DNA from: a virus
Taxonomy: Duplodnaviria > Heunggongvirae > Uroviricota > Caudoviricetes
Virus record (IMG/VR): IMGVR_UViG_2554235126_000004
Length of the DNA: 39,628 bases
Reading direction: 5' to 3' (one strand)
Below are positions 3,526 to 7,660 of the stretch, piece after piece. A program made the translations under genes and the position numbers. The notes beneath the pieces were generated by a model. It did not search any database, was not told the DNA's origin, and saw nothing but the letters and a program-made list of their open reading frames with translations. Within the stretch, counting starts at the first letter, position 1. The number at the start of each line of letters is the position of its first letter.

Positions 3526-4350
3526 TCAGGCGGTGAAAGTACCAATAAAGGTTTCTACTTTGCTGTCTTTGAATTTCTCAACAAGCAGATCGCGAAATTC
3601 GTTAGCCATTTCTTCCTGCACCGCCTCCAGCTGAATAATGCGCAGAACAAGTACAGGACGATCGCCAGTGATAATGCTGAGGCGTAATTTAAAAGAACGT
3701 TCTTTCAGACCTTCAAACGGAACGCATTTAAATTCAAATGCCACTGGCATAATGTCTTTGGTCTTCGCTTCGACAGACTCCATCAGGGAGCGTTTGCCGC
3801 TGAAGTCATTATCTTCAAAATCAGCGGTCTGGTTTGCTTCAATCGTGATTTTACGGACAGCCGCAGCCGCTTTTGTTGCCTGGATAGCGTCACCATTAGC
3901 ATCAAAACCCACAAGGTAGTCGGCCCAGTCTTCAATCCATTCTGCCAGTGACTTCTGGGAGTTACGCTCGCTGTTAACAGACAACAGTGCAGAGAACGGT
4001 GCTGTCTTTTTCAGTTTGAGAGTGGCGGTGTTATCTGCGTGACCTGGTTCATCAATAGTACCCAGGTTAAGCACACTGACGGCACGCATATTATCAGCAT
4101 CGATAAAGCAGCGGGTGCCTTCATCTGCAAGATCTTTAGAATAACGGGTAAAGTCATCGATGCTGGCAGTGGAAAGCGCACCACGGAAACGGAAGCGATT
4201 TAAATTAAATTTTTCCAGATCATGAATGCGGAAATTCTCAGGCAATGCTACAGCATCGGCACCAATCTTACTGATAATTTCATTAACACCCTGAGCAGAA
4301 ATAATAGCATGGATTTGATTAATTGCGGTTGCGTCTAAGTTCTGAGACAT
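3526..4350 (-). CDS. YfdQ-like phage protein (DUF2303-type)
   Basis: 274-aa ORF, GAGGA RBS 7 nt upstream; resembles CPS-53 YfdQ family as recalled. Confidence 0.65.
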
Positions 4351-4415
4351 AATAAGTCCTCACTATATAAAGATATTCAGTGATGAGATAAATAATCAGT
4401 TAATTAAGAACGATA

Positions 4416-4778
4416 TTAATGACCTGCTGCGCGGAGTTTTCCGTCAGGTTCACCGGCAAGAGTCAGTAATTGTCCCTGGTCTTCCTGCAGAATAGTCAGG
4501 CGACCACCGCGATTGACATACATCGGCGTTTCGGTGGTGTCTTCTTCAGAAATTTTCCCGCGGTTAGTCGGGCGAACATATGAGAGTTTGTGTTTGATTT
4601 TCACTCGGTTCTCATCAAATGGTTCGATTTCCAGGTTGAGTGAGACCTTACCTTTGGTTTTCGTGTTCATCACACCGGAAGCGACTTCACTGAGAACTGC
4701 GCCGATTTTGGTTTCAAATACGCCGCCGTCCAGCTCCCCGATAAATGCCTGCACATCAGTACTGCGTTCGCTAGCCAT
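4416..4778 (-). CDS. YfdP-like small phage protein
   Basis: Start placed at ATG 4778 (MASERSTDV...) with GAGGAG RBS; upstream in-frame extension to 5096 is Arg/Cys-rich and non-protein-like. Confidence 0.55.
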   Translation of the reverse strand: MASERSTDVQAFIGELDGGVFETKIGAVLSEVASGVMNTKTKGKVSLNLEIEPFDENRVKIKHKLSYVRPTNRGKISEEDTTETPMYVNRGGRLTILQEDQGQLLTLAGEPDGKLRAAGH

Positions 4779-5180
4779 TTTGCTGCTCCTCATCATATCG
4801 ACCCTGCAAGGCCGATTAGTTTCTCCACAAAACAGAGAAGAACACCTGCGGTGGCAGCCGCCCGGATGGATTGAGTTATGAGCCCGTCGTCCGGTGATGC
4901 TCTTCTCTGTTTTGTAAAAAGGACGGTACCAGCCGGAAGCAAGGGTACAAGCTGGTACCGCCAAGACTACACACAGCATAAAGTTGTGGTGCCGGGTGCC
5001 TCCCGGTGCCTGGCGAAGGTTGCACACCAGGCGGGTGGGTATCCACAGAAGGTCGACTGTCAGCCTCAACCTTAACCCGCGTGCGCTGAGCAGCATTCAC
5101 CACAACGCTAAGGATTCTCTCTGGTTGAAAATACTTAGCTGTTATGTGCCTGCTTTTAGCCACATCAGGCGAGGTGGACC
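4779..5180. other. GC-rich structured non-coding region with nested inverted repeats (candidate structured RNA)
   Basis: About 400 bp without plausible ORF; 15-bp perfect inverted repeat ACAAAACAGAGAAGA / TCTTCTCTGTTTTGT (about 4828-4916) enclosing further GC-rich stems; 9-bp stem GGTACCAGC/GCTGGTACC at 4925-4959. Confidence 0.3.
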
Positions 5181-5232
5181 TGGTTATTCCCCAACAACAA
5201 GGATTCGGTTAATCTGGTTATCCCCAACAACG
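5181..5232 (+). repeat. direct repeat CTGGTTAT(T)CCCCAACAAC x2 immediately upstream of the 144-aa gene
   Basis: Copies at 5181-5200 and 5214-5232, second ends 15 bp before ATG 5247; possible regulator binding sites. Confidence 0.4.
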
Positions 5233-5246
5233 CAAAAGGAAAAGAA

Positions 5247-5681
5247 ATGTCCGGTAATATCTACACGTTGTACAAATCCCACTGTGAAAATGTTGGAAAG
5301 TATCGGGGCATTGAAATCAGTGGGGTAGTGTCATCAGTCGAAATAAGCAAAGTGGAATCAAGGGCAACATTACTTACTCTTCTGGATCTTGTCTTACATG
5401 AGCACCGGAAGAAATTCGGCACTCCCTATAATCAGTTGAATGGGAAAAAGGCTCTGGTTCACCTTATTCTGATGAAGCATCACTGGATGCCAAAACAGAT
5501 TAATGAGATGAAATTTGATGAACTTCTTCTTTCAATTCAGGATGAACTCACACTTGATAAAATAAGCGTAACCGCCCAGAAATTTTTAGATTATCGAGAC
5601 TGGAGATCACAAATTCATCACTTTGATGATTTTGACGAAAATGAATGGGATCCTAATTTGTCTGCACAATATCTAAAGTAA
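5247..5681 (+). CDS. hypothetical protein (AT-rich cargo gene, opposite strand to early-left operon)
   Basis: 144-aa ORF with AAAGGAAAAG upstream of ATG; AT-rich codon usage unlike flanking genes; 3' end overlaps convergent 68-aa gene by 29 bp. Confidence 0.5.
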   Translation: MSGNIYTLYKSHCENVGKYRGIEISGVVSSVEISKVESRATLLTLLDLVLHEHRKKFGTPYNQLNGKKALVHLILMKHHWMPKQINEMKFDELLLSIQDELTLDKISVTAQKFLDYRDWRSQIHHFDDFDENEWDPNLSAQYLK

Positions 5682-5859
5682 CATCCTGTGATAAAACCGT
5701 GATTTCCTGATCCAGTTTTTTTAAGGAGTCTATTGTTTCCTGTCGATAAGACAGCACTTCACGAAGCTGGTTTATAGCTGCCAGCTTCTTTGCCATCCAC
5801 TCGTAAATTTCCTCATTTGTGTATCCGGGCGCGACGATTTTGGGTTCTGTTTTGTGCAT
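5653..5859 (-). CDS. hypothetical small protein, first gene downstream of pL-like promoter
   Basis: Start placed at ATG 5859 (MHKTEPK...) with GAGGAGG RBS 7 nt upstream; 68 aa. Confidence 0.5.
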   Translation of the reverse strand: MHKTEPKIVAPGYTNEEIYEWMAKKLAAINQLREVLSYRQETIDSLKKLDQEITVLSQDVTLDIVQTN

Positions 5860-5901
5860 TTCACACCTCCTCAAGTTATCAGTTACTTGTTGATGGGGAC
5901 C

Positions 5902-5937
5902 AGATTGTTAAAGAGCTAAGCGTCCTGTAGGGCGCTT
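5902..5937 (-). promoter_or_regulatory. rrn-type boxA-like element (GCTCTTTAACAAT) with adjacent hairpin in the pL leader
   Basis: Minus-strand sequence AAGCGCCCTACAGGACGCTT (hairpin) followed by GCTCTTTAACAAT, matching the rrn/nut boxA consensus as recalled; on plus strand the same hairpin plus T-run could act as terminator for the 144-aa gene. Confidence 0.35.
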
Positions 5938-6026
5938 TTTTGTTGCTAACGAATCATCCTGGACTTCATATGCCCCAGGCGGCTACTTCGTGGGCGTCCT
6001 GCCTGTTTGTTGTTTCTCTTAGGTAC

Positions 6027-6054
6027 ATTATGTATCTCAAGGGTACATTGTCAA
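6027..6054 (-). promoter_or_regulatory. pL-like early-left promoter (TTGACA-N16-CATAAT) overlapping operator half-sites
   Basis: Read on minus strand: TTGACA at 6054-6049, 16-nt spacer, CATAAT at 6032-6027; GGTACAT/TGTAT operator-like repeats overlap. Confidence 0.5.
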
Positions 6055-6056
6055 GT

Positions 6057-6080
6057 ATAAAAAAACCTGCCGAAGCAGGT
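6057..6080 (-). terminator. rho-independent terminator downstream of cI
   Basis: Minus strand: stem ACCTGC/GCAGGT with 4-nt loop followed by U7 run, 14 nt after cI stop. Confidence 0.55.
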
Positions 6081-6093
6081 TCATAAACATTGA

Positions 6094-6768
6094 TTAGGCT
6101 TTGATTTTGTATCTTCTTGGTTTTCCTGAGAAAATCACAGTTCCAATTATAGAGCAATTACCGTTGATCTTAATGTAAGGCTCAGGCCAGTTTGGGTTTA
6201 ACGCTTTGAGATAACGCTGTGTCCCATCTTCTATCAACCTTTTGAAGGTGGTTTCACCTGTATCGTGCATCAATGCAATAACGTCGTCACCGTGGCAGGC
6301 AGGTACTTCAGGATCGACAAAAATCATGTCTCCCGGGCGGTACTCATCAATCATTGAATCACCTATCACCCGCAAGATATAAGTCATTTCCCCACAGGGT
6401 ACAGGGCAGGGATACGTTTCTGCTGTGCTCAAATCAACCTCAGAATATCCAACTTCTTTCCATGCTCCGGCCTGTACCCATGATATGACAGGGACTAATG
6501 TGATTTGTTTATTAGTGATTGAAACATCAGGTTTTTTTGTGATGTTCGTTGTCTGGTGTTCTTGATCGAGCCATCCGACAGGCAGGTCGAAACATTTTTC
6601 GATGTGTCGTGCCATGTTGTCACCGATATTTTTAGTAGCACCATCTCCCATAAACCTGCTGGTCTGGGTTGGCTCGCGATCAATCATAGTGGCAAAGGAA
6701 GAATTCCCGCCAACACCATCTCTCAGTTTTCTGGCGTTAGACCGCCGGATGTCATGGATTGTTTTCAT
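6094..6768 (-). CDS. CI-type prophage repressor (HTH plus S24 LexA-like peptidase domain)
   Basis: 224 aa; N-terminal HTH, C-terminal GDSM...K autocleavage-type motif; divergent from cro with operators between. Confidence 0.9.
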   Translation of the reverse strand: MKTIHDIRRSNARKLRDGVGGNSSFATMIDREPTQTSRFMGDGATKNIGDNMARHIEKCFDLPVGWLDQEHQTTNITKKPDVSITNKQITLVPVISWVQAGAWKEVGYSEVDLSTAETYPCPVPCGEMTYILRVIGDSMIDEYRPGDMIFVDPEVPACHGDDVIALMHDTGETTFKRLIEDGTQRYLKALNPNWPEPYIKINGNCSIIGTVIFSGKPRRYKIKA

Positions 6769-6783
6769 AACGAAATTAAAACC

Positions 6784-6853
6784 CTTGTACCGTTAAGGTA
6801 CAAGTATCTTGAAGGTTCATTTCAATCATGTAATATGTACACCGGAGGTACAT
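6784..6853. promoter_or_regulatory. immunity operator region (OR-like) between cI and cro
   Basis: Perfect 21-bp palindrome CTTGTACCGTTAAGGTACAAG (6784-6804) and ATGTAC-N7-GTACAT (6835-6853); same GTAC half-site recurs at the pL side (6020-6050). Confidence 0.6.
6809..6836 (+). promoter_or_regulatory. pR-like promoter for cro (TTGAAG-N16-TAATAT)
   Basis: -35 at 6809-6814, -10 at 6831-6836, 22 bp upstream of cro ATG; overlaps operator. Confidence 0.5.
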
Positions 6854-6858
6854 ATTGT

Positions 6859-7059
6859 ATGAAAGCGTATTGGGACTCTTTAACCAAAGAACAGCAGGGC
6901 GAGTTGGCCGGAAAAGTTGGCTCAACACCTGGCTACTTACGGCTGGTTTTCAATGGCTATAAAAAAGCCAGTTTTGTGCTGGCTAAAAAACTTGAGCAAT
7001 GCACGTCAGGTGCAATTACGAAATCTGACTTAAGACCGGATATCTATCCGAAAGATTAG
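6859..7059 (+). CDS. Cro-like small HTH regulator
   Basis: 66-aa ORF divergent from cI; GGAGG RBS; ORF track entry 6556..7059 is an upstream extension overlapping cI on the opposite strand. Confidence 0.75.
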   Translation: MKAYWDSLTKEQQGELAGKVGSTPGYLRLVFNGYKKASFVLAKKLEQCTSGAITKSDLRPDIYPKD

Positions 7060-7090
7060 CAGAACACTTTCAATTTTTAACCACAGAACG

Positions 7091-7660
7091 ATGAGGCTAA
7101 TCGTGGGTAAGCATCACTGGAAAGTAGAAAAACAGCCTGAGTGGTACGTGAAAGCTGTCAGAAAAACTATCGCGGCGTTGCCGGGTGGTTACGCTGAAGC
7201 GGCTGACTGGCTCGATGTAACAGAAAACGCTTTATTCAACCGCCTTCGTGCAGATGGCGATCAGATTTTCCCGCTGGGATGGGCAATGGTTTTACAGCGT
7301 GCTGGTGGCACTCACTTCATTGCTGATGCTGTGGCGCAGTCTGCAAATGGCGTCTTTGTGTCTCTTCCTGACGTCGAGGATGTGGACAACGCCGATATTA
7401 ACCAGCGTCTGCTGGAAGTCATTGAACAGATCGGCAGTTATTCAAAACAGATTCGTTCAGCAATCGAAGACGGTGTAGTGGAACCGCATGAGAAGACAGC
7501 AATTAACGACGAGCTGTATCTCTCAATTTCGAAGCTGCAGGAGCATGCAGCACTTGTCTACAAAATTTTTTGCATTTCAGAAAGTAATGACGCCCGCGAG
7601 TGTGCAGCTCCGGGCGTCGTGGCGTCGATTGCTTCTGGTTGTGGAGAAACTAACGCATGA
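7091..7660 (+). CDS. CII-like / YdaT-like regulatory protein (start may be GTG at 7103)
   Basis: Position immediately after cro as in Rac ydaS-ydaT; GAGG precedes GTG 7103. Confidence 0.45.

What the first reader, a model, noticed from the sequence alone, without database searches (positions are those of the whole stretch)
5181..5859. Convergent, overlapping 144-aa and 68-aa genes next to the early-left promoter; the 144-aa gene looks acquired
The 144-aa gene is on the opposite strand to the pL-driven operon, is AT-rich, is preceded by two direct repeats, and its 3' end overlaps the 68-aa gene by 29 bp. Convergent overlap implies mutual antisense transcription, typical of toxin-antitoxin-like or exclusion modules. 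Neither protein matches a family I recognise.
Basis: partly seen in the sequence, partly recalled or inferred. Interest (0 to 1): 0.5.

Follow-up and report, generated by a model that had tools for sequence, protein, structure and literature searches.

The report
Conserved convergent prophage gene pair
Two small overlapping genes on opposite strands next to this phage's left early promoter are a conserved, mobile gene pair of unknown function, always inserted in the same orientation inside the lytic operons of many enterobacterial prophages; it is a good candidate for a new lysogen-expressed accessory module.

Summary
The window is about 99% identical to Shigella phage SfIV. ORF A (144 aa, 5247-5681, +) and ORF B (68 aa, 5653-5859, -) converge and overlap by 29 bp, just downstream of a CI-operator-flanked pL promoter (6054-6027). 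Both belong to named but uncharacterised families. A is an 'ECs1072 family phage-associated protein' (NCBIfam NF033230, phrog_5286). B belongs to the YdfC family of the Qin dicB operon. A has a confident all-alpha model (pLDDT 94) with no significant PDB or BFVD match and no Pfam or PADLOC hit.

The main result is that the pair is conserved at 29-38% protein identity for A. It is always convergent with overlapping 3' ends, at three kinds of site: after pL, between Q and holin, and between cII and O. B always runs with the lytic operon and A against it. In 120 viral contigs that share the left boundary element, A came with B in 46 loci. The three exceptions were two truncated contigs and one truncated gene. 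Published RNA-seq of ST64B lysogens shows the A homologue transcribed from its own promoter.

Here the pair fills a cassette slot bounded by inverted repeats, which holds other genes in sister phages. I read it as a functionally coupled, lysogen-expressed accessory pair controlled by convergent transcription. Toxin-antitoxin or exclusion activity is untested.

The parts
5247..5681 (+). Gene A: 144-aa ECs1072-family protein (NCBIfam NF033230; phrog_5286). All-alpha, soluble, pI 6.4.
   Evidence: ORF. NF033230 scores 157.8 bits against a cutoff of 70. phrog_5286 at 1.5e-90. 76 representative clusters, all about 145-155 aa. AF2 pLDDT 94.1. 16 nt differences but only 2 aa changes among 4 relatives.
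5653..5859 (-). Gene B: 68-aa YdfC-family protein (phrog_1744). Conserved N-terminal motif EP.I.A.G.T.EE.Y.WM..K followed by a coiled-coil-like helix. It is the first gene downstream of pL.
   Evidence: ORF. 38% identity to YdfC, E 9e-17. The profile search retrieves 'protein YdfC' at E 1e-24 to 1e-26. phrog_1744 at 4.8e-34.
5653..5681 (.). 29-bp overlap of the 3' ends of A and B.
   Evidence: Coordinates. Overlaps of 32 to about 95 bp occur in homologous pairs.
5180..5199 (+). Distal copy of the direct repeat CTGGTTAT(T)CCCCAACAAC.
   Evidence: Present in PhiR29_1 and in the E. coli prophages L007-L009.
5211..5232 (+). Proximal direct repeat, which is also the left arm of the cassette-bounding inverted repeat (AATCTGGTTATCCCCAACAA). 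The junction with PhiR29_1 lies at 5231/5232.
   Evidence: The motif lies upstream of + strand genes in at least 120 viral contigs.
5887..5906 (+). Right arm of the inverted repeat (TTGTTGATGGGGACCAGATT). The junction with PhiR29_1 lies at 5899/5900.
   Evidence: I2, 75% complementary. An RNA duplex with the left arm is predicted at -26 kcal/mol, reached by 0.2% of shuffles.
5918..5945 (+). Intrinsic terminator on the A strand (8-bp GC-rich stem plus a T run). It would end the A transcript after it has crossed all of B in antisense.
   Evidence: It is shared with PhiR29_1 and absent from SfV.
6011..6054 (-). pL promoter (6054->6027) with two operator-like repeats (6011-6029, 6031-6049).
5178..5947 (.). 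The whole unit that is absent from SfV: repeats, A/B cassette, right arm and terminator.
   Evidence: Homology with SfV ends at 5177 and resumes at 5948. GC is 40.4%.

Best explanation
A (ECs1072 family) and B (YdfC family) form a conserved, mobile two-gene accessory cassette of temperate enterobacterial phages. The cassette is always inserted inside a lytic operon with the same polarity: B is read in the direction of the lytic promoter, and A lies on the opposite strand with its 3' end overlapping that of B.

In this phage the cassette fills an inverted-repeat-bounded slot between the CI-controlled pL promoter and the rest of the early-left operon.

Proposed mechanism. A is transcribed on its own in the lysogen; this has been shown only for the ST64B homologue. 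Its transcript runs antisense across all of B to the terminator at 5918-5945. When pL fires, RNA polymerase reads B and continues antisense through A. Convergent transcription therefore sets the A:B ratio, with A favoured in the repressed prophage and B favoured during lytic growth. I infer that the two proteins act on each other or on one common target as an antagonistic pair. The more likely polarity is that A is the lysogen-phase partner holding B in check, because A almost never occurs without B while B often occurs alone.

Shown: both are real genes; their family membership; the conserved pairing, polarity and overlap; cassette mobility; the terminator; the pL context.
Inferred: A's promoter in this phage, mutual transcriptional interference, protein-protein antagonism, and any phenotype such as exclusion or host modulation.
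For: - Pairs with A at 29-38% identity to the window protein and a homologous B partner, convergent and overlapping, occur next to cI/pL in L010, L012, L015, L016 and L018/19.
- The same pair occurs between Q and holin in ST64B, Klebsiella phage KPP5665-2 and L013/14. It probably also occurs between cII and O in Sakai Sp4, the prophage that names the family.
- The B partners are homologous to one another: an HMM of the immunity-site Bs hits the Q-holin Bs at E 7.5e-7 to 2e-3, against noise of 0.2 or worse.
- The A and B identity matrices correlate (Mantel r 0.70, p about 0.002).
- In 120 viral contigs carrying the left boundary motif, 46 have both A and B, 3 have A only (2 truncated contigs and 1 truncated gene), and 3-4 have B only. 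Orientation is A +/B - in all 45 of 45 pairs scored by tblastn.
[quoted passage not shown] STMMW_20131 (sb50, the B homologue) shows TPM 23-258. The flanking holin and Q-like gene are at 33 and 7.3 or lower (PMC7067206).
- Each A has a terminator on its own strand, lying in or beyond B.
- A is present in 422 of 5426 complete E. coli genomes, next to three different repressor alleles.
Against: - No functional data exist for either family, and there is no similarity to any toxin, antitoxin, defence or regulatory protein.
- No sigma-70-like promoter for A was found in this window.
- YdfC-family genes are far more common than A. They occur alone in Qin/PPompW phages and next to unrelated + strand genes without overlap (L053, L086).
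- A occurs without B in L011.
- In ST64B both genes are transcribed in lysogens, whereas here B sits behind a repressed pL. The simple 'A in lysogeny, B in lysis' switch therefore cannot hold at every site.
- The Mantel signal is driven largely by two clades, so it shows co-inheritance rather than interaction.
- Strand-specificity of the published TPM values was assumed, not checked.
Confidence: 0.45

Rival explanations
1. The association is positional only. B is an ordinary promoter-proximal early gene (YdfC). A is an independent moron that tends to land or persist just downstream of it on the opposite strand. The two products have unrelated functions, and the overlap merely reflects tight packing.
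For: - YdfC occurs widely without A.
- The same slot holds unrelated + strand genes in sister phages: the 171-aa phrog_1244 gene in PhiR29_1, and the 81-aa/98-aa pair in SfV.
- L053 and L086 have a YdfC next to a different + strand membrane-protein gene.
- L011 has A alone.
Against: - The pair recurs at three different operon positions, including Q-holin and cII-O, where a resident YdfC is not otherwise expected.
- In this window B lies inside the inverted-repeat-bounded cassette together with A, while in L086 the resident YdfC lies outside the slot.
- In the 120 motif-carrying contigs A comes with B in 46 loci, and the only 3 exceptions are 2 truncated contigs and 1 truncated gene.
- The two genes show congruent divergence.
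Confidence: 0.27
2. A strict toxin-antitoxin or abortive-infection module. One protein is toxic to the host and the other neutralises it, and infection by another phage releases the toxin, giving exclusion.
For: - Two small, tightly linked, overlapping genes with asymmetric dependence.
- Location at classical exclusion and moron sites next to the immunity region and downstream of Q.
- Both genes are transcribed in ST64B lysogens.
Against: - No hit to any PADLOC model or TA Pfam family.
- The genes are convergent rather than co-transcribed.
- In this phage B is behind a repressor-controlled promoter, so both partners would not be co-expressed in the lysogen.
- One degraded prophage keeps an intact A with a stop codon in B (E17*, L008). 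B therefore cannot be an essential antidote to A, although A as the antidote to B remains possible.
Confidence: 0.15
3. The RNA is the active part. Transcription of A serves mainly as a long antisense RNA or roadblock that damps pL-operon (or late-operon) expression in lysogens, like oop against cII or STnc6030 in BTP1. The A protein would then be secondary.
For: - The fixed antisense polarity relative to lytic operons.
- The A transcript would cover B and, in L010, run into pL itself.
- Sakai ECs1072 sits exactly at the oop position.
- There is precedent for an antisense exclusion RNA in PMC7067206.
Against: - A is strongly conserved as a protein: 76 clusters of constant length, invariant Trp134 and near-invariant Arg54, Gly66 and His72, and a confident fold.
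- Its substitutions are overwhelmingly synonymous.
Confidence: 0.1
4. One of the two ORFs is not a real gene.
For: The 68-aa ORF is unannotated in the SfIV GenBank record, and the ST64B A homologue is unannotated in the ST64B record.
Against: - Both have homologues at 29-40% identity in unrelated DNA backgrounds.
- Both have strong ribosome-binding sites.
- PGAP annotates both in E. coli genomes.
- Both match PHROG families.
Confidence: 0.03

Closest known systems
YdfC of the Qin prophage dicBF operon (ydfA-ydfB-ydfC-dicF-dicB-ydfD)
   Same: B is a sequence homologue: 38% identity, with profile E values of 1e-24 to 1e-26. Like YdfC it is a promoter-proximal gene of the repressor-controlled leftward operon, and it is followed by an sRNA-like untranslated region. 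PMC5069750 describes ydfA, ydfB and ydfC as small proteins of unknown function.
   Different: Here B is the first gene after pL, is overlapped by a convergent gene, and lies inside a swappable cassette. K-12 and PPompW YdfC have no ECs1072-type partner.
ECs1072 family (NCBIfam NF033230) / STMMW_20121 of prophage ST64B
   Same: A is a member by HMM score. Owen et al. 2020 flagged the ST64B member as a lysogen-expressed, independently transcribed, antisense 'moron-like' locus.
   Different: No function is known for any member. To my knowledge the obligate-looking pairing with a YdfC-like gene and the fixed polarity were not described: the paper treats STMMW_20121 alone.
Morons (autonomous promoter-gene-terminator units in lambdoid phages)
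   Same: Presence/absence polymorphism between near-identical phages, lower GC, its own terminator, expression in lysogens (ST64B homologue), and location at classical moron sites.
   Different: This is a two-gene convergent unit in which one gene belongs to the lytic transcript. No recognisable sigma-70 promoter was found here. The cassette is bounded by inverted repeats.
Lysogen-expressed exclusion systems next to the immunity region (lambda RexAB, P22 SieB/Esc/sas, BTP1 BstA with self-immunity)
   Same: The genomic neighbourhood (between the repressor/pL and the early-left genes). The logic of a lysogen-expressed factor plus a phage-encoded means of escaping it. The involvement of antisense transcription, as in sieB/sas.
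   Different: No sequence or fold similarity, and no exclusion phenotype has been tested. This comparison rests on my own knowledge of those systems, not on a tool result.
Lambda oop RNA / cII
   Same: A convergent transcript overlaps the 3' end of a lytic-operon gene. In Sakai Sp4 the A gene occupies the cII-O gap, where oop lies in lambda.
   Different: oop is a 77-nt non-coding RNA, whereas A is a conserved 144-aa protein gene.

Membership tests
ECs1072 family phage-associated protein (NCBIfam NF033230) | HMM score above the curated cutoff, over the full length | tested here: met
   157.8 bits against a cutoff of 70; residues 4-144 match profile positions 2-142 of 142. The Sakai ECs1072 protein itself matches the family profile built here at E 7e-13.
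YdfC family | Sequence homology to E. coli YdfC | tested here: met
   BLASTP gives 38% identity over 66 aa, E 9e-17. The profile search returns many 'protein YdfC' entries at E 1e-24 to 1e-26.
YdfC family | Promoter-proximal position in the repressor-controlled leftward (dicB/pL-type) operon | tested here: met
   B starts about 170 nt downstream of the pL -10 element, with no other gene between them.
Moron | Presence/absence between otherwise near-identical phage genomes | tested here: met
   SfV and PhiR29_1 share both flanks at 98-99.5% identity but carry different inserts.
Moron | Own terminator | tested here: met
   + strand stem-loop with T run at 5918-5945.
Moron | Own promoter, active in the lysogen | tested here: inconclusive
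   The scan found no + strand sigma-70 consensus in 4300-7100. The ST64B homologue has its own mapped promoter and is expressed in lysogens (PMC7067206).
Moron | Atypical base composition | tested here: met
   38.2% GC against 49.2% for the window, the 11.6th percentile.
Toxin-antitoxin system | Homology of either partner to a known toxin or antitoxin family | tested here: not met
Toxin-antitoxin system | Co-transcribed bicistronic operon (type II), or a small antisense RNA against a toxin mRNA (type I) | tested here: not met
   These are two convergent protein-coding genes. Each transcript would be antisense to the other, but both encode conserved proteins.
Toxin-antitoxin system | One product toxic, the other neutralising | not testable with these tools
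   This needs expression and rescue assays.
Known anti-phage defence systems (PADLOC-DB v2) | HMM match to a component of a described or candidate system | tested here: not met
   0 families at E of 1 or lower for A, B and both left neighbours.
STnc100/PasD sRNA family (neighbouring feature, 4913-5136, - strand) | Covariance-model score at or above Rfam's gathering threshold | tested here: inconclusive
   41.9 bits against a gathering score of 47; E 4.5e-7; full-length match to model positions 1-206.
Invertible DNA segment (Hin/Gin-type) | Both orientations of the segment between the inverted repeats found in a population | tested here: not met
   All 45 of 45 A/B cassettes downstream of the left motif are in the same orientation.

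The most novel reading that the evidence does not exclude
A and B are a new two-component prophage system. It would consist of a lysogen-expressed protein with a previously unseen all-alpha fold and a small YdfC-type partner that antagonise each other, with their ratio flipped by convergent transcription whenever the host lytic operon fires. This would give phage exclusion with built-in self-immunity, or protect the lysogen from a lytic-phase effector. It would also assign a first function to the long-orphan K-12 gene family YdfC. In addition, the inverted-repeat-bounded slot would be a dedicated cassette-exchange or RNA-processing platform for such genes.
Probability: 0.3. Interest if true: 0.75.

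Novelty: new variant of a known kind. Interest (0 to 1): 0.58.

Why it matters
The pair is common. It is present in about 8% of complete E. coli genomes, including ST131. It also occurs in Shigella serotype-converting phages and Klebsiella prophages. It is carried by ST64B, which PMC7067206 reports in both Salmonella Typhimurium strains it studied. The prophage that names the family is in O157:H7 Sakai. Yet neither protein has a known function or a recognisable fold.

The fixed polarity inside lytic operons, together with the conserved 3' overlap, gives a concrete and testable regulatory model. It also gives a rational entry point to YdfC, an uncharacterised K-12 prophage protein. If the pair turns out to be an exclusion or self-immunity module, it would add a new protein family and a new regulatory layout to prophage-encoded defence. 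If not, it is still a clean example of how accessory cassettes are wired into phage operons.

Tried and rejected
- Pfam, NCBIfam and PADLOC scans gave no informative hit for A or B beyond the orphan family names.
- The afdb50 library was unavailable.
- tblastn of Sakai ECs1072 against the phage collection found nothing.
- A promoter for A could not be found. The scan found none. By eye I considered weak extended -10-like TGnTAT..T motifs seen upstream in L010, L012, L013 and SfV, and sigma-54, sigma-32 and sigma-E consensus sequences. None fits the window convincingly.
- The invertible-segment idea for the inverted repeats was rejected, because orientation is invariant.
- A resemblance to integron attC core sites (YYYYAAC/GTTRRRR) was considered. 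The arms are 500-650 bp apart rather than forming a compact attC, so it was not pursued.
- Covariation between the arms could not be tested, because the search pattern fixed the left arm. The inner part of the right arm varies without compensation.
- The weak minus-strand terminator-like site inside A (5578->5563) was noted but not relied on.

Full report
WHAT THE WINDOW IS. The region matches Shigella phage SfIV at 99.4% over 861 bases, and matches several E. coli phages at 98.7%. The local gene order, written right to left on the minus strand, is as follows:
- cI (6094-6768, Peptidase_S24 repressor);
- the cI terminator (6082-6063);
- pL;
- the region of the finding;
- a 460-nt untranslated stretch;
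- yfdP (4416-4778), yfdQ (DUF2303), yfdR and onward to xis/int.

CHECK OF THE OBSERVATION. Both ORFs exist as described: A at 5247-5681 on the + strand (144 aa) and B at 5653-5859 on the - strand (68 aa). They overlap by 29 bp. Both have good ribosome-binding sites, read.

The promoter scan finds TTGACA-16-CATAAT (11/12) on the minus strand at 6054-6027. It is embedded in two 19-nt repeats (D2). Their GGTACA half-sites recur in the cI/cro intergenic region. This identifies it as the repressor-controlled pL.

The direct repeats are real: 5180-5199 and 5214-5232, with a one-base indel between them.

A is 38.2% GC against a window mean of 49.2%. That is the 11.6th percentile, so it is moderately rather than extremely AT-rich.

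A + strand intrinsic terminator lies at 5918-5945, between B's start codon and pL. An A transcript that ends there would be antisense to the whole of B and to B's ribosome-binding site.

BOTH ARE REAL GENES IN NAMED BUT UNCHARACTERISED FAMILIES.

A scores 157.8 bits (cutoff 70) on NCBIfam NF033230, 'ECs1072 family phage-associated protein', and 1.5e-90 on phrog_5286. A profile search of 1.84 billion representative proteins finds only 76 clusters. All are about 145-155 aa and none has a fused domain. Trp134 is invariant, and Leu50, Arg54, Leu64, Gly66, Ala69 and His72 are nearly so.

B is 38% identical to YdfC (E 9e-17). A profile of six B-type proteins retrieves many entries named 'protein YdfC' at E 1e-24 to 1e-26. 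YdfC is one of the promoter-proximal small proteins of unknown function in the Qin dicBF operon (PMC5069750).

Among four close relatives, A shows 16 nucleotide differences but only 2 amino-acid changes. B shows 5-7 nucleotide differences with 2 amino-acid changes, plus a premature stop in one visibly degraded prophage. PGAP annotates both genes in E. coli genomes, and A is present in 422 of 5426 complete genomes.

STRUCTURE. With a 48-sequence alignment, AlphaFold2 gives an all-alpha model of A with pLDDT 94.1 and pTM 0.88.
- Foldseek against BFVD gives nothing with E of 0.001 or lower.
- Profile searches against PDB sequences, Pfam and PADLOC are empty.
- A is soluble, with pI 6.4 and no membrane segment.
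- HEPN-like hits seen with an earlier, weaker model did not survive.

Fold and sequence therefore say nothing about function.

THE CASSETTE AND ITS SLOT. SfV shares the flanks up to 5177 and from 5948. PhiR29_1 shares them up to 5231 and from 5900. Between these points SfV carries an 81-aa + strand gene that converges on and overlaps the 98-aa orf33, and PhiR29_1 carries a 171-aa + strand gene.

The proximal direct repeat is the left arm (5211-5230) of an inverted repeat. Its right arm (5887-5906) lies exactly at the other junction. The same arms flank the PhiR29_1 gene (26 nt, 85% complementary) and a 166-aa gene in L012.

Scanning viral contigs for ATCTGGWTATCCCCAAC returned at least 120 loci. 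Wherever an ORF of at least 60 aa could be called after the motif (90 of the 120 loci), it was on the + strand and started 13-51 nt after the motif. In most loci an inverted copy (...GGATATCCAGATT) follows directly after the cassette, at a distance that scales with cassette length.

Cassette types in these loci:
- the A/B pair, in 46 loci;
- a 'VIAEL...' family of 147-175 aa, in about 37 loci;
- several others.

The arms could pair in either transcript, with predicted energies of -26 and -30 kcal/mol, which at most 0.2% of shuffles reach. Orientation never varies (45/45), so I found no evidence for DNA inversion. I cannot tell whether the arms act as recombination boundaries, as an RNA stem (for example an RNase III site that excises the antisense cassette from the pL transcript), or as a protein-binding site.

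THE KEY RESULT: THE PAIR IS CONSERVED, WITH FIXED POLARITY, AT THREE KINDS OF SITE.

Site 1, next to the repressor and pL. Distant A homologues (29-38% identity) sit next to a repressor or pL in L010, L012, L015, L016 and L018/19. Each is convergent with, and overlapped by 32 to about 95 bp by, a small gene carrying the YdfC motif.

Site 2, between Q and holin. Three further homologues lie between the Q antiterminator and the holin: ST64B, Klebsiella phage KPP5665-2, and L013/14. They are again convergent with, and overlapped by, a YdfC-like gene that runs with the late operon. This partner is sb50 in ST64B, GP45 in KPP5665-2, and an uncalled ORF in L013.

Site 3, between cII and O. In O157:H7 Sakai, ECs1072 itself (now ECs_5703) lies between the cII-like gene and the replication gene, antisense to the pR operon. 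A + strand ORF carrying GGLSDVELAEWLIHK runs into it. The HMM support for that partner is weak (E 0.0035).

Further support:
- An HMM of the immunity-site B proteins detects the Q-holin B proteins at E 7.5e-7, 1e-4 and 2e-3, against background of 0.2 or worse. PHROG links them through L013.
- The identity matrices of A and B over nine pairs correlate (Mantel r 0.70, p about 0.002). This shows co-inheritance.
- In the 120 motif-bearing contigs, 46 have both genes. Three have A only (two cut by a contig end, one a truncated A). Three or four have B only.
- The B-only loci show a Qin-type YdfC lying outside the slot and not overlapping the neighbouring + strand membrane-protein gene. In this window, by contrast, B lies inside the slot with A.
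- A also occurs alone in L011.

EXPRESSION EVIDENCE FROM THE LITERATURE. Owen et al. 2020 (PMC7067206) singled out STMMW_20121 of prophage ST64B as transcribed in almost all conditions. [quoted passage not shown]

Their Table S5 places it at 2090066-2090500. That is 435 nt, starting 162 nt from the holin, which matches the position and length of the unannotated ST64B A homologue in L004 (2845-3279). Its TPM is 61-269 in 16 of 17 conditions. STMMW_20131 (2090430-2090789, which is sb50, the B homologue, with a 71-nt overlap) has TPM 23-258. The holin is at 33 or lower and the Q-like gene at 7.3 or lower.

This fits the signals I predicted in ST64B: a pR'-like promoter just upstream of B, a minus-strand terminator beyond A, and a + strand terminator for A inside the B ORF. 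That + strand terminator is conserved in the Klebsiella phage.

Separately, ECs1072 gave a measurable microarray signal in uninduced Sakai (PMC2241611).

Caveat: I assumed that the published TPM values are strand-specific.

HOW IT MOST LIKELY WORKS. What is shown is a mobile two-gene unit. B is placed to be read by a lytic promoter. A is on the other strand with its own terminator in or beyond B. In at least one prophage, A is expressed in lysogens.

What I infer is the following. Convergent transcription sets the A:B ratio, and the proteins are functionally coupled. Because A almost never occurs without B, while B often occurs alone, A looks like the dependent partner. For example, A could be a lysogen-phase antagonist of a lytic-phase YdfC-type effector.

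The opposite polarity, with B relieving an A-imposed block when the phage itself goes lytic, is not excluded. It fits less well with the degraded prophage that keeps A while carrying a stop codon in B.

The simple switch cannot be universal. In ST64B both genes are transcribed in lysogens, whereas here B sits behind a repressed pL.

RIVALS. The rival explanations are purely positional association, a strict toxin-antitoxin or abortive-infection module, an RNA-only role for A transcription, and an ORF artefact. They are weighed in the dedicated fields. The artefact reading is effectively excluded.

COMPARISON WITH WHAT IS KNOWN, AND NOVELTY. Both families are catalogued, and the ST64B A homologue was already flagged as a candidate accessory gene. 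I believe the following points are new:
- the near-obligate pairing of A with a YdfC-type gene;
- the conserved convergent overlap;
- the fixed polarity inside three different lytic operons;
- the inverted-repeat-bounded slot.

The layout resembles morons, immunity-region exclusion genes with self-immunity, and oop/cII-type convergent control. It is not a demonstrated member of any functional class. I rate it a new variant of a known kind, with moderate-to-good interest (0.58).

Noticed in passing
window 5211-5230 and 5887-5906; L002 3112-3137/3666-3691; L012 5741-5755/6285-6299; L020-L139: A cassette 'slot' bounded by inverted repeats (AATCTGGWTATCCCCAAC ... GGATATCCAGATT) holds different + strand genes in at least 120 viral contigs. 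Orientation is always the same, and a shared + strand terminator lies just outside the right arm. Its role is unexplained: recombination boundary, long-range RNA stem, or binding site.
   Followed up: partly
window 4913-5136 (-): Full-length but sub-threshold match to the prophage sRNA family STnc100 (41.9 bits, gathering score 47, E 4.5e-7), plus a weak DicF-like hit at 4921-4975. It lies in the pL transcript between the cassette and yfdP, in the position that dicF holds after ydfC in Qin. STnc100 is reported to be related to the PasD sRNAs (bioRxiv 10.64898/2026.05.13.724894).
   Followed up: partly
window 4827-4851 / 4891-4915: A 25-nt inverted repeat (84% complementary, 39-nt loop) forms a long hairpin in the GC-rich (54%) untranslated region just upstream of yfdP. 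It is conserved in SfV and PhiR29_1.
   Followed up: no
window 4416-5096 (-) and 4984-5328 (+); L001: The SfIV GenBank record annotates a 226-aa gp34 and a 114-aa gp35 across the untranslated region, and omits the 68-aa gene. The real yfdP is the 120-aa ORF 4416-4778 (as annotated by PGAP and in PhiR29_1). The 114-aa ORF overlaps the start of gene A and looks spurious.
   Followed up: partly
L004 2845-3279 (+) (ST64B, NC_004313): The 144-aa ECs1072-family gene is not annotated in the ST64B phage record. sb50 on the other strand is annotated as 119 aa, but the conserved protein probably starts at MQDGKQQ, giving 85 aa.
   Followed up: partly
L003 3117-3362 (+) and 3280-3576 (-) (SfV): At the same site SfV carries a different convergent, overlapping pair: an unannotated 81-aa gene (phrog_3311) and the 98-aa orf33 (phrog_3195), with an 83-bp overlap. 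The convergent-pair layout may therefore be a general property of this hotspot.
   Followed up: no
L013 5642-5693: Three perfect tandem copies of ATCAGTCGTTTTCTGATA (17-nt period, each copy partly palindromic) lie immediately upstream of the YdfC-like gene in a Q-holin-site pair.
   Followed up: no
L008 3379-4269 (+) (E. coli G1/2): A 296-aa BRCT-domain protein gene sits between the A/B cassette and the repressor in one prophage. In that prophage B carries a stop codon, and yfdQ and yfdR are frameshifted.
   Followed up: no
L015 2-169 (-): A phage-borne CsrA homologue lies directly next to an A/B pair. The 5' leader of A in the window has two GGA motifs, one of them in the Shine-Dalgarno sequence. 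This is a speculative link and was not examined.
   Followed up: no
window 6173-6146 (-): A promoter-like site (TTAAGA-16-TATAAT, 10/12) lies inside the 3' end of cI, upstream of the cI terminator. It could give low-level leftward transcription in lysogens.
   Followed up: no
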